Shown piece after piece: positions 54,743 to 57,753 of a stretch of DNA of 64,000 nt. The DNA is taken from contig JBHLJY010000004.1 in the NCBI GenBank assembly GCA_048887225.1, forward strand, positions 160,001 to 224,000. The letters run 5' to 3'. The notes below the pieces were generated by a model. It had not been told where the DNA came from. It searched no databases and worked only from the letters and a program-made list of their open reading frames with translations. Each line of letters starts with the position of its first letter. Within the stretch, counting starts at the first letter, position 1. This stretch comes from Candidatus Hodarchaeota archaeon (GTDB lineage: Archaea; Asgardarchaeota; Lokiarchaeia; Sigyniarchaeales; SOKP01). A program made the translations under genes and the position numbers.

Positions 54743-55336
54743 CTAATCGTTATAATTGTAGCGTTGTTCTTTCCATGGATCTGCTTTATTAGAATATCCC
54801 GCTCTTTCCCAATAACCTAATCTATCCTCCTTTAGAAAAGTAATTTTTACAACCCATTTTGCTGATTTATAGAAATATAAATCAGGGATAATTGGTCGGA
54901 CAGGTCCCCCATGTTTATCATTTATGGGCTCTCCCTCATAAGATAGAGCTAAAATGCTATTTCCTTTTTTAATTGCCTCAATCGGAACTGTCGTTGTAAA
55001 ATTATCATCTCCGCATAGAAATTCAACAAAATGAGCTGTTTCTTTTGGTTTTACAATATTCAAGAGTTTTTTAAAAGAAATCCCCCCCCATTTAGTATCG
55101 AATTTGCTCCAAGAAGTAACACAATGGATATCTACAATGACTTCTTTGTCTTGAAGTTTTTCAAGACTTGAAAGCGTAAAAGTCGTTGGATTTTCAACCT
55201 CTCCCTCAATATGTAGTTTATAATTCTCTCTGTTTATGCGTACGATTCGGCCTTTTTGGAGGACCGGAAATCTTTCTGTTATATGTTGACCTGGAGGTAA
55301 TCTTGGTCTTTCTTCATTTTTAAAATTTTCATTCAT
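54743..55336 (-). CDS. Sulfite oxidase-like molybdopterin oxidoreductase (MsrP/YedY-like)
   Basis: RLPPGQ, DIHCVTSWS, HGGPVR, YFYKSAKW and GYWE motifs. Confidence 0.9.
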   Translation of the reverse strand: MNENFKNEERPRLPPGQHITERFPVLQKGRIVRINRENYKLHIEGEVENPTTFTLSSLEKLQDKEVIVDIHCVTSWSKFDTKWGGISFKKLLNIVKPKETAHFVEFLCGDDNFTTTVPIEAIKKGNSILALSYEGEPINDKHGGPVRPIIPDLYFYKSAKWVVKITFLKEDRLGYWERAGYSNKADPWKEQRYNYND

Positions 55337-55407: not shown

Positions 55408-56730
55408 GTGTTTATATTGACAGGAAAAAAAGGAAAGATACAATGCATAAATGATGAAATTCTAGAAAAGATGAGTTTGAAGAATCGTAATAAATTTATA
55501 GATAATAATTTGATTAGTGTTTTAAAGCCTGAACATTTTAATTTTCTACGCAAAACTCAGAGATTTTACGAAAGGTTTGAAAGTAAAAATAACATAACCC
55601 ACGATGAAGATTTTTATGATTGGATTCCAATAATGGGCAAGGAAGGTTTAATTAGTCGTGTTACCAGATTTGAAGATATTGGCTTAAATTACGATCCTTA
55701 TGGGATAACAATAGAGTTTCTAAGAATTTTGGCTACTGACTTATTTGACCCCCAAATGGCTATATTTGCTTAAAATCGCAATTCGCGAGCAAAAGCTATG
55801 GGTATGGGGGCTAGTGTGTTGGCAATAAACCCATTAACGCTCCATCACGAAAATATTGACATTAGATTGAAAGCCCTTAAAGAGTTAGTCACTGGAGAGA
55901 AAATTGGTTGTTGCTGTATTACAGAGCCAGAAAGAGGATCTGATGCTGTACATATGTTAACAACCTGCGATGAAAATGAAGATGGTGGTTATACGATTAA
56001 TGGACAAAAAATTTACCAGACGAATGGTCCTAAGGCAGACTGGGCTATTGTTTATGCATGCACCGAGAAAGATAATGGAAATACTATGGCACAATTTTTA
56101 GTAAATTCTTCATGGGAGGGCTGGAATGTTGAAAGAGTAAATATCCCGTGGACTCCAAGGATCTTTATAGGGAAAGAAACCTTTAGAAATTTAAAAGTTC
56201 CTAAAGAATACGTATTAGGACCCCCAGGGATGGGTAGAGATCATCTTTTTGAAGGATTAAATTTAGAACGTTTAGGTATTGTTGCATTAAATCTCGCACA
56301 GGCATGGAATGCAATATCCCACGCAGTAATTTATGTAAACATGAGAAAACAATTTAATCAAGAAATTTTAAAGTTTCAAGGAGTTGGATTTCCTCTATCA
56401 GATCTATGGGCCAAAACTATGAATTTAACTTTAGCTTTTTTATACATTGCTCAAACCGTTGATGAAAAGATCGAAAAAGGTACTCTTACTAAAGAATTTA
56501 ATTTGGCTCTTGTTGCATCTGCCTCTCAATTAAAATCTCAGAGCGCAAAGCTAAGTGAACGGGTTTGTTACGAATGTGCGAATTTAATGGGCGGCGCGGG
56601 AGCTTGTGATAATACATTAATGCACGATTTACTTGGAATCTCTAGAATTCAAGAAATGGGGGGAGGAACCCGTCAGATACAACAATACATAATGAGCCTA
56701 AGTTTGAGGCAGTTATTCAAAATGTTATAA
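55408..56730 (+). CDS. Acyl-CoA dehydrogenase interrupted by a 36-nt insert (exons 55408-55763 and 55800-56730; 428 aa if spliced)
   Basis: Both track ORFs (55408-55773 and 55798-56730) are in the same frame. Joined sequence reads DLFDPQMAMGMGASVLAINP; ITEPERGSDA, GQKIYQTNG, RKQFNQ and MGGAG motifs. Confidence 0.8.
55764..55799 (+). other. Putative bulge-helix-bulge (BHB) intron in a protein-coding gene
   Basis: Central 4-bp helix GGCT/AGCT; 3-nt bulges ATA and ATG on opposite strands; intron helix TTTGCTT/GAGCAAA; exon helix CCCCCA/TGGGGG; contains an in-frame TAA. Confidence 0.65.
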
Positions 56731-56781: not shown

Positions 56782-57753
56782 TTATCTTTTTTTTAACGAA
56801 ATTCCTAGGTTAAGATTTTCAAATAATTCGCTAAATCTATTTCTAATTGTAACTTCTGTAACCTGTGAAATTTTAGCAATTTTTCTTTGAGTTCTTCTTT
56901 CTTTACATAATATTGAAGCCGCATATATGGCAGCTGCGCAAACTCCAGTTGGACCTCTCCCAGAAGTTAAACCACGTAGTTCTGCTATTTTTATTATTTT
57001 TTTGGATTTTTTATGGCACTGTTGAGATAAACCTAATTCACTTATAAAGCGTATGAGGAAATCCAAAGGTTTAGTAGGATTCAAATTTAATTTTAATTCT
57101 TTTGAAATAAATCTAAAAGACCGACCAATTTCTTTTTTATTGACGCGTGCAACTTCCGCAATTTCATTTAATGTTCTAGGTACATGGAACATTCTACAAG
57201 CTGCATATAAGCTTGCTGCAGCGACCCCTTCAATAGATCTTCCACGAATTAAATGTGCTTCTACTGCATCTCTGTATATTTTTGCTGAGCATTCTCGTAA
57301 ATTCTTTTGAAGATCTAAATTTGAAGCCATACGATCTAATTCACTTAAGGCGAACGTTAAATTTCTTTCAGTTGCATCAGATACTCTAATACGGCTCTGC
57401 CATTTTCGGAGCCGATAAATTTGTGCTCTTAATTTAGCGGGTATTTCCTTTCCGAAGATATCACGATTTTTCCAGTCAATCATTGTACTTAGACCTTTAT
57501 CGTGTATCATGTATGTCATTGGTGCTCCTGTTCTTGTTCTCTTCTTTTTCTGATCAGCATCAAATGCTCGCCATTCTGGCCCGTGATCAATCCATTTCTC
57601 GGATTTTATTAACCCACATTGTTCACATACCATGAAACCTCTATTTCCATCATAAGAGATAGTATTGCCACATTCTGAACAATGTTTTGATGATAATCCA
57701 TCATCATCATGTTTTTCTTCATGTAAAGTCTTAACTTCTTTCCAACTTGAAAT
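56782..57753 (-). CDS. tfb: Transcription initiation factor IIB (probable ATT start at 57753)
   Basis: Complete Zn ribbon CSECG...CEQCG only with the upstream extension; GPEWRAF, HDKGLST and two cyclin repeats. Confidence 0.95.

What the first reader, a model, noticed from the sequence alone, without database searches (positions are those of the whole stretch)
55749..55810. Candidate BHB-type mRNA intron in an acyl-CoA dehydrogenase gene
Seen: the gene is split into two same-frame ORFs by a TAA inside the 36-nt segment 55764-55799. The region folds as a bulge-helix-bulge. The outer exon helix is CCCCCA(55749-54)/TGGGGG(55805-10), imperfect near the junction. The central 4-bp helix is GGCT(55758-61)/AGCT(55794-97), the 5' bulge is ATA(55762-64), the 3' bulge is ATG(55798-800), and the intron helix is TTTGCTT/GAGCAAA. 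Established: the archaeal splicing endonuclease EndA cuts after the 2nd nucleotide of each bulge, and protein-gene introns of this kind are known mainly from crenarchaeal cbf5. Applying that rule removes exactly 36 nt, deletes the stop and gives ...CAA ATG GCT AT|G GGT ATG (DPQMAMGMGASV), where the ACAD fold appears to need no insertion. Inference: an Asgard metabolic mRNA may be spliced by tRNA-type machinery, possibly as a regulatory switch analogous to HAC1/XBP1 splicing. It may be one of more such introns hidden as 'split genes'.
Basis: partly seen in the sequence, partly recalled or inferred. Interest (0 to 1): 0.95.

Follow-up and report, generated by a model that had tools for sequence, protein, structure and literature searches.

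The report
tRNA-type mini-intron in Asgard ACAD gene
An acyl-CoA dehydrogenase gene of an Asgard (Promethearchaeota) archaeon is interrupted by a 36-base hairpin shaped like the introns archaea cut out of tRNAs, and comparison with about 150 related genes shows it almost certainly has to be cut out of the mRNA, which the papers I could search confirm for only one archaeal protein gene (cbf5).

Summary
The gene at 55408-56730 carries a 36-nt insert (55764-55799) with an in-frame TAA.

The insert is not an artefact or a dead gene:
- It lies in contigs of two other studies.
- It sits at the same site in 13 diverged alleles of one genus-level clade.
- Its length is 34, 35 or 36 nt, so read-through cannot rescue the gene.
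- Cutting after the second base of each bulge restores a 428-430 aa frame and the invariant Met in every allele.
- Two helix pairs show compensatory changes, and RNAalifold finds the same fold unaided.
- Both exons are under strong purifying selection (dN/dS about 0.05).
- The intron is far better conserved than four-fold sites (0.82 against 0.45).
- Silent exon positions are held to a perfect outer helix only in insert-bearing alleles.

The genome has two EndA paralogues and RtcB. The motif is relaxed on its 3' side. No RNA data were available, so splicing itself is inferred. The HAC1-like switch idea is untested. This scan has already reported similar mini-introns in this and other Asgard genomes, so this is one more member.

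The parts
55408..55763 (+). Exon 1 of the acyl-CoA dehydrogenase gene (GTG start; ends ...CAA ATG GCT AT, phase 2)
   Evidence: ORF list. Orthologues of 428 aa align from residue 1. Junction by DNA alignment.
55764..55799 (+). 36-nt BHB-type intron (third base of the 5' bulge to second base of the 3' bulge)
   Evidence: Absent from all intact orthologues. Present at the same site in 13 alleles as 34, 35 or 36 nt. Removal gives 428-430 aa ORFs.
55800..56730 (+). Exon 2 (G GGT ATG GGG ... to TAA stop); Acyl-CoA_dh_M and Acyl-CoA_dh_1 domains
   Evidence: Pfam hits; ORF list; dN/dS about 0.05.
55749..55754 (+). Outer (exon) helix, 5' strand CCCCCA; pairs with 55805-55810
   Evidence: 6 pairs, 98.5% of cells paired in 11 alleles. 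Silent positions are GAC 13/13 and CC[C/T] 12/13 in intron-bearing alleles, against GAT 59/78 in intron-less ones.
55805..55810 (+). Outer (exon) helix, 3' strand TGGGGG
   Evidence: Gly codon is GGG in 11/11 intron-bearing alleles against 12/78 intron-less.
55758..55761 (+). Central 4-bp helix H, 5' strand GGCT; pairs with 55794-55797
   Evidence: Invariant, 100% paired. Both inferred cuts lie 2 nt 3' of its two strands.
55794..55797 (+). Central helix H, 3' strand AGCT
55762..55764 (+). 5' bulge ATA; cut after 55763
   Evidence: Unpaired 3-nt bulge in the consensus fold. The cut position is fixed by the orthologue junction.
55798..55800 (+). 3' bulge ATG; cut after 55799. The middle base varies (T/G/A) among alleles. 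The context is relaxed: only a U-G pair (55757-55801), then a small internal loop before the outer helix.
   Evidence: In alleles with G or A here, only this cut restores the invariant Met.
55765..55769 (+). Inner (intron) helix h', 5' strand TTTGC; pairs with 55789-55793 GCAAA
   Evidence: G-C to A-U compensatory change in 3 alleles; C-G to U-G in 3.
55776..55788 (+). Apical hairpin TCGC-AATTC-GCGA
   Evidence: G-C to A-U compensatory change in 2 alleles.
55771..55773 (+). In-frame TAA inside the intron, kept in all 13 alleles

Best explanation
The 36 nt at 55764-55799 are an archaeal bulge-helix-bulge (tRNA-type) intron inside the coding sequence of an acyl-CoA dehydrogenase gene. In the pre-mRNA, exon and intron bases fold into four elements: a 6-bp exon helix, a 4-bp central helix flanked by two 3-nt bulges on opposite strands, a 5-bp intron helix and a small apical hairpin. 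The heteromeric splicing endonuclease EndA cuts between the second and third base of each bulge. RtcB joins the exons to give ...ATG GCT AT|G GGT ATG..., and the ribosome then makes the full 428-aa enzyme. Unspliced mRNA would stop at the intron's TAA after 121 residues.

Shown: the insert, its exact boundaries, its fold and covariation, selection on the exons and on the intron, and the presence of the enzymes' genes.

Inferred: that cleavage and ligation happen, and that EndA and RtcB do it.

The intron arose (or entered) at the base of one genus-level clade. It has since been lost or gained precisely at least six times.
For: 1. Orthologues lack exactly these 12 codons and read DPQM|AMGMGAS.
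2. It is not an artefact. Contigs of two other studies, about 96% identical, span the site with no gap and no difference at 55741-55841.
3. Split N-terminal products ending DPQ[ML][AT]IF[AVN]* exist in 10 protein clusters of 66-92% identity. Their DNA shows the same insert at the same site.
4. Insert lengths are 36, 35 (three contigs of different samples) and 34 nt. In the 35-nt allele L040 the two ORFs are in different frames. Removal by the BHB rule gives 428-430 aa ORFs in all complete alleles.
5. In most alleles the last intron base is G or A. Only the cut after the second bulge base restores the Met that is invariant in orthologues.
6. Structure: 98% of cells are paired, two pairs show compensatory G-C to A-U changes, and 0 of 500 shuffles reach the covariation score. 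Slid controls pair 30-52%. RNAalifold predicts the same fold unaided.
7. dN/dS among intron-bearing alleles is 0.046-0.057 with dS from 0.76 to saturated, the same as intron-less pairs.
8. Mean pairwise identity is 0.82 for the intron against 0.45 for four-fold sites of exon 1.
9. Silent exon positions keep the outer helix only where the intron is present: GAC 13/13 against 19/78, and GGG 11/11 against 12/78. In independent pairs the codon goes the same way in 4-5 of 6 (GAC) and 3-4 of 5 (GGG), and never the other way.
10. Machinery: the genome has two EndA paralogues, fitting the (alpha-beta)2 type with broad specificity reported for Asgard (PMC5829648), and it has RtcB. Aragorn calls introns in 15 of 32 tRNAs.
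11. The same cut rule repairs the genome's only RtcB gene. The only uL11 gene is also interrupted.
Against: No RNA evidence exists: no spliced junction and no circular intron. The 3' cut site is not in a clean 3-nt bulge. After it come one U-G pair, a small internal loop and a 1-nt offset before the outer helix, and in some alleles the first bulge bases can pair with U12/U13. The motif is therefore a relaxed HBh' form rather than a canonical hBHBh'. Thermodynamic stability is unremarkable (z -0.9 to -2.7), and the window's own MFE is a competing fold. Three intact paralogues exist in the genome, so the cell would not strictly need this copy. The sign tests on silent sites do not reach 0.05 because there are few independent pairs.
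Confidence: 0.85

Rival explanations
1. A genuinely split gene. The mRNA is not spliced. ORF1 (121 aa) and ORF2 (starting at the conserved ATG of GMG) are made as two polypeptides that assemble, and the conserved RNA fold serves translational coupling or re-initiation.
For: An ATG (Met of GMG) lies just after the insert in all alleles, and a G-rich run precedes it. Public annotation calls two genes.
Against: The cut falls inside the N-terminal domain, not between domains. The ORF1 tail varies at the amino-acid level (IFA/IFV/IFN, and an Ile codon in L055) while the RNA pairs are kept. Alleles with and without the insert alternate among 92-98% identical genes with equal dN/dS, as expected if the products are the same. 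The exact symmetry of the boundaries around a 4-bp helix has no role in this model. The G-run is only 1-2 nt from the ATG.
Confidence: 0.05
2. Translational bypassing (a ribosome hop, as in phage T4 gene 60) from the GCU before the insert to the GCU near its end, with the stop codon and hairpin as take-off signals.
For: Matched GCU codons (55759-61 and 55795-97), a stop shortly after take-off and a hairpin are present. In the window allele alone the hop would give the same protein.
Against: In all other alleles the codon after the landing GCU is AGG or AAG. The hop would give Arg or Lys where every orthologue has an invariant Met. The outer exon helix and its silent-site constraint are unexplained. 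No such system is known in archaea (my knowledge).
Confidence: 0.03
3. A neutral or disabling insertion: a young pseudogene, a footprint, or a miniature mobile element with target duplication, tolerated because three paralogues exist.
For: A GCTAT direct repeat flanks the insert in the window, and short inverted ends are present. Intact paralogues exist. Presence is patchy.
Against: The insert is single-copy in the genome. The repeat is only GCTA in most alleles and follows from the palindromic central helix. The insert has persisted through saturated silent divergence with both exons intact and dN/dS about 0.05. The insert itself is conserved well above neutral sites.
Confidence: 0.02
4. Stop-codon read-through or recoding, giving a protein with a 12-residue insert.
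For: In the window the two ORFs are in the same frame, with one TAA between them.
Against: The 34- and 35-nt alleles shift the frame. No orthologue has an insert there.
Confidence: 0.01

Closest known systems
BHB intron in the cbf5 (pseudouridine synthase) pre-mRNA of Crenarchaeota (Desulfurococcales, Sulfolobales; Yokobori et al. 2009, PMC2738675, and the work it cites)
   Same: A short intron inside a protein-coding sequence, with a mostly relaxed BHB and predicted cuts between the second and third bulge bases. The host has a heteromeric EndA with broad specificity. Distribution is patchy, with gain and loss among relatives.
   Different: A different phylum (Asgard/Promethearchaeota) and a different gene (a metabolic acyl-CoA dehydrogenase with paralogues). 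Splicing is not shown experimentally here, whereas cbf5 has cDNA and in vitro cleavage evidence. Here presence and absence alternate among 92-98% identical alleles.
[quoted passage not shown]
   Same: The same inferred machinery and motif logic: half of the motif is exon, so the exon must allow the fold. The size range is similar. Aragorn calls introns in 15 of 32 tRNAs in this genome.
   Different: The substrate is an mRNA. The exon half of the motif is built from codons, which visibly constrains silent sites.
Unconventional cytoplasmic splicing of HAC1/XBP1 mRNA
   Same: A small intron is removed from an mRNA by an endonuclease that recognises stem-loops, followed by a tRNA-type ligase (RtcB in animals). 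The unspliced message yields a different or truncated product.
   Different: The nuclease there is Ire1, not EndA, and the event is a regulated stress switch. There is no evidence here for regulation. This is a resemblance in mechanism only, recalled from my own knowledge and not tested.
Other BHB-type mini-introns in Asgard protein genes noted earlier by this scan (uL11, acs, thiolase-like, csp, iolM, PurM-like in this genome; argG, elf1, rnhB and others elsewhere)
   Same: The same size class (about 28-36 nt), the same cut rule and the same phylum. I re-checked two cases in this genome myself (RtcB, new; uL11, partly).
   Different: Those are unpublished AI notes, so they are leads and not evidence. 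This case adds length variants (34/35/36 nt), at least six presence/absence changes in one genus, and the silent-site signature in the exon helix.

Membership tests
Archaeal BHB (EndA-type) intron | A 4-bp central helix flanked by two 3-nt bulges on opposite strands (canonical hBHBh') | tested here: inconclusive
   The central helix and the 5' bulge with its inner helix are perfect and invariant. The 3' bulge is closed on the exon side only by one U-G pair, then a small loop and a 1-nt offset before a 6-bp helix. In some alleles its first bases can pair. This fits the relaxed HBh' class, not the strict motif.
Archaeal BHB (EndA-type) intron | Cuts between the second and third base of each bulge give the functional junction | tested here: met
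   The rule removes 36, 35 or 34 nt and restores 428-430 aa ORFs and the invariant Met in every allele. The rule itself is stated in PMC2738675.
Archaeal BHB (EndA-type) intron | The structure, rather than the sequence, is maintained in evolution | tested here: met
   Two compensatory pairs, 98% of cells paired, slid controls at most 52%. An independent RNAalifold consensus agrees. Silent exon sites are constrained.
Archaeal BHB (EndA-type) intron | The host encodes a splicing endonuclease able to cut relaxed motifs, and an RtcB ligase | tested here: met
   Two PF01974 genes, at C1:186989 and C3:61052. RtcB is at C13:33313-34649, itself interrupted. Asgard EndA is reported as (alpha-beta)2 with the L1 loop (PMC5829648). 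Subunit roles were not assigned here.
Archaeal BHB (EndA-type) intron | The intron is actually removed from the RNA (spliced junction, excised or circular intron) | not testable with these tools
   No RNA holder was listed for this stretch.
Miniature inverted-repeat or other mobile insertion | Multiple copies in the genome; target-site duplication unrelated to function | tested here: not met
   There is a single copy: the best other match is 14 nt. The repeat shrinks to GCTA in most alleles and is part of the palindromic central helix.
Translational bypassing (T4 gene 60 type) | Matched take-off and landing codons that yield the conserved protein | tested here: not met
   GCU/GCU is present, but the next codon is AGG or AAG in all but the window allele, which contradicts the invariant Met.
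Stop-codon read-through / recoding | The insert keeps the reading frame | tested here: not met
   34- and 35-nt alleles exist.

The most novel reading that the evidence does not exclude
tRNA-type splicing of mRNAs is routine in this Asgard genus and its introns are dynamic. The ACAD intron has been precisely lost or gained at least six times among near-identical alleles. That implies either an active route of precise intron loss (for example through cDNA of spliced mRNA) or of insertion (reverse splicing or homing). Even the mRNA of the ligase RtcB needs the pathway, which would create a feedback loop. The invariant in-frame stop and the unusually conserved intron sequence could also make splicing of this ACAD message a regulated on/off step.
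Probability: 0.2. Interest if true: 0.85.

Novelty: new member of a known kind. Interest (0 to 1): 0.65.

Why it matters
In the papers I could search, endonuclease-type splicing inside an archaeal coding sequence is confirmed only for cbf5 of Crenarchaeota. PMC2738675 says so for 2009, and my searches found no report for Asgard protein genes.

A conserved, selected BHB intron in an ordinary metabolic gene of the closest archaeal relatives of eukaryotes shows that interrupted protein genes and protein-enzyme mRNA splicing exist there. It also offers a compact, testable substrate: about 70 nt, with natural length variants and natural compensatory mutants.

In practice, such genes are annotated as two fragments (118 aa 'hypothetical' plus a 304-310 aa ACAD). 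Gene counts and metabolic reconstructions of Asgard MAGs are therefore biased.

The silent-site signature shows how an intron's structural needs reach into the coding sequence.

Tried and rejected
- N-rich exact-pattern scans for the intron in metagenome contigs and genome contigs returned nothing, although the pattern matches fetched loci. I treated this as a limitation of the tool or collection, not as absence, and used protein-seeded locus searches instead.
- RNA evidence: no RNA holder was listed. The raw-read run of the source study laid no reads at the depth sampled.
- My generic genome-wide scan (BHB geometry plus 'removal merges two ORFs') showed no excess over shifted-cut decoys: 75 against 81-96 on the + strand, and 70 against 59-69 on the - strand. 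It cannot count introns and is not used as evidence.
- A follow-up test of junction peptides against paralogues was noisy. It recovers the ACAD intron strongly (E 6e-36) and gives only a few further leads.
- The 121-aa variant P0129 (L049) is a contig that diverges completely after residue about 95, with no downstream ACAD. It is likely chimeric or rearranged and is not another intron.
- A covariance-model search for homologous introns in other genes was not run. blastn-short found no related sequence in the genome.

Full report
**What is there.** The window lies in a 3.27-Mb, 98% complete genome (G000, contig C4). It has 30% G+C. Its ACAD relatives all come from Promethearchaeota (Asgard) MAGs. 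At 55408-56730 (+) is an acyl-CoA dehydrogenase gene with Pfam middle and C-terminal domains. One in-frame TAA (55771-73) breaks it into ORFs of 121 and 310 aa.

**The insert is defined by homology.**
- The closest intact orthologues (94-96% identical, 428 aa) and more distant ones lack exactly 12 codons and read DPQM|AMGMGAS.
- A DNA alignment with one of them shows a clean 36-nt gap.
- Orthology is supported by conserved neighbours: a molybdopterin oxidoreductase gene upstream and a TFIIB gene downstream, in insert-bearing and insert-free loci alike.
- The insert has no other copy in the genome; the best other match is 14 nt.
- None of 75 ACAD homologues in 40 related species-representative genomes has an internal stop.
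- None of 63 further species representatives carries the insert.

**It is not an artefact and not a lone mutation.**
- Logan contigs of two other studies, about 96% identical to the window, span 55500-55945 without any gap. They show no difference between 55741 and 55841.
- A search with ORF1 among short proteins found ten clusters of 118-121 aa (66-92% identical) that all end DPQ[ML][AT]IF[AVN]*.
- Their contigs, plus three more found by a protein-seeded scan of JGI metagenomes, carry a homologous insert at the same site. That makes 13 distinct alleles.

**Length variants and the exact cut.**
- The insert is 36 nt in eight alleles, 35 nt in three contigs from different samples, and 34 nt in one.
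- In the 35-nt allele L040 the two ORFs are called in different frames, so read-through cannot work.
- In most alleles the last insert base is G or A, not T. The flanking repeat is then only GCTA.
- Only one pair of cuts restores the Met that is invariant in all orthologues: after AT of the 5' bulge and after the second base of the 3' bulge.
- Both cuts lie two bases 3' of the two strands of the same 4-bp helix. This symmetry is the hallmark of EndA substrates, and the cut rule is as stated in PMC2738675.
- Removing the insert by this rule in a script gives 428-430 aa ORFs in all complete alleles.

**Structure.**
- On 11 alleles the BHB-like structure has 98% of cells paired.
- Two pairs carry compensatory G-C to A-U changes, one in the inner helix and one in the apical hairpin.
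- None of 500 shuffles reaches the covariation score. Sliding the partners by 1-3 columns drops pairing to 30-52%.
- RNAalifold, given only the alignment, returns the same fold: outer helix, central helix, a 3-nt AUA bulge, inner helix and hairpin.
- That fold is also the single-sequence MFE in four of six other alleles. In the window sequence itself a competing pairing wins.
- Stability is ordinary (z -0.9 to -2.7), so the case rests on comparison, not energy.
- The 3' site is relaxed. After the bulge come one U-G pair, a small loop and a 1-nt offset before the 6-bp exon helix. This is an HBh'-type motif.
- cbf5 introns are also mostly unconventional (PMC2738675). Asgard EndA is reported as (alpha-beta)2 with the specificity-broadening L1 loop (PMC5829648).

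**Selection.**
- Among insert-bearing alleles dN/dS is 0.046-0.057, while silent sites run from 0.76 to saturation. Insert-free pairs give the same values. The gene has therefore stayed functional for as long as the insert has existed.
- The insert itself is far more conserved than neutral sites: mean pairwise identity is 0.82 against 0.45 at four-fold sites of exon 1.
- Silent exon positions that form the outer helix are fixed only where the insert is present. Asp is GAC in 13/13 against 19/78, and Gly is GGG in 11/11 against 12/78.
- In phylogenetically independent pairs the codon goes the same way in 4-5 of 6 (GAC) and 3-4 of 5 (GGG), and never the other way. With so few pairs the sign tests stay at p 0.06-0.25.
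- The three silent differences between the window and its 95%-identical insert-free relative (55749, 55752, 55809) all perfect that helix.

**History.**
- In a tree of 91 alleles, all 13 insert-bearing ones fall in one clade of 25 (SH-aLRT 99) that corresponds to the window's genus.
- There they are interleaved with 12 insert-free alleles. Well-supported branches force at least six changes.
- Pairs that differ in the insert are 92-98% identical in DNA.
- Some insert-free alleles keep the GAC...GGG helix codons (L051, L059).
- The best reading is one origin followed by repeated precise loss, or exchange of alleles by recombination. Repeated insertion at one site cannot be excluded, and the mechanism is open.

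**Machinery and context.**
- The genome has two EndA paralogues and one RtcB gene.
- Aragorn finds only 32 tRNAs, 15 of them with introns. This fits the intron-rich Asgard tRNA genes described in bioRxiv 10.64898/2026.10.13.758758.
- The RtcB gene is itself split into two frames by a 29-nt insert. It has the same architecture: a 4-bp helix, an AUA bulge and a 9-bp inner helix. The same cut rule restores the RtcB motif GGVGYDINCG.
- The RtcB insert is shared with the closest species only, and ten other relatives checked read straight through.
- The only uL11 gene is also interrupted by short stop-bearing inserts.
- Earlier notes of this scan report further such mini-introns in this and other Asgard genomes. 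I treat them as leads. They mean this finding is one more member of a pattern the scan has already seen.

**Rivals.**
- Read-through fails on the 34- and 35-nt alleles.
- A gene-60-type hop from GCU to GCU would give Arg or Lys instead of the invariant Met in all alleles but the window's.
- A pseudogene or mobile element fails on copy number, dN/dS and insert conservation.
- A truly split protein with coupled translation is not excluded. It does not explain the symmetric boundaries, the exon-helix constraint, or the free alternation with intact alleles.

**Limits.** No RNA run holds this stretch, so cleavage and ligation are inferred. My motif-based genome census had no power against decoys. 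The HAC1-like regulatory idea is untested; the only hints are the invariant in-frame TAA and the strong conservation of the intron.

Noticed in passing
G000:C13:33313-34649 (+); locus L127:1473-1501: The genome's only RtcB (RNA ligase) gene is split into two frames by a 29-nt insert with a 4-bp helix, an AUA bulge and a 9-bp inner helix. Cutting after the second bulge base restores the RtcB motif GGVGYDINCG. The insert is shared with the closest species (G002, two base changes, one keeping a U-G pair) and is absent from ten other relatives checked. The ligase needed for this kind of splicing would itself need splicing.
   Followed up: partly
G000:C4:65230-65720 (-): The single uL11 ribosomal protein gene is interrupted. 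The N-terminal Pfam domain matches only from position 21. The reverse strand reads MSKKGKVVVKALVTGG..(stops)..ASGGPPIGPA..(stops)..GPTGINIKDV, which means two short stop-bearing inserts. This agrees with earlier scan notes.
   Followed up: partly
G000:C1:321212-321243 (+): A candidate 32-nt BHB-type insert in an aldolase-like gene. Removal gives ...GAVGV|DMGRNIFQ..., and a paralogue (C2:37801-38022) aligns across the junction without a gap (E 6e-14). Weaker leads of the same kind lie at C19:7688 (30 nt) and C5:191663 (33 nt, minus strand).
   Followed up: no
whole genome G000: Aragorn finds only 32 tRNA genes in a 98% complete genome, 15 of them with anticodon-loop introns of 8-268 nt. The rest are probably hidden by non-canonical or multiple introns.
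   Followed up: no
L051, L059, L048, L060 (junction region): Some insert-free alleles still carry the GAC ... GGG codons that form the exon helix in insert-bearing alleles. L059 is 92.5% identical to the insert-bearing L055. This is a possible footprint of recent precise intron loss.
   Followed up: partly
window 54743-55336 (-) and 56782-57633 (-): A 197-aa molybdopterin oxidoreductase-like gene and a TFIIB gene flank the ACAD gene on the opposite strand. This three-gene arrangement is kept in insert-bearing and insert-free relatives.
   Followed up: no
L035 (GCA_048941425.1) and other public records: Public annotation calls the interrupted gene as two proteins: a 118-aa 'hypothetical protein' and a 304-310 aa acyl-CoA dehydrogenase. 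Such introns are therefore invisible in current Asgard gene catalogues.
   Followed up: yes
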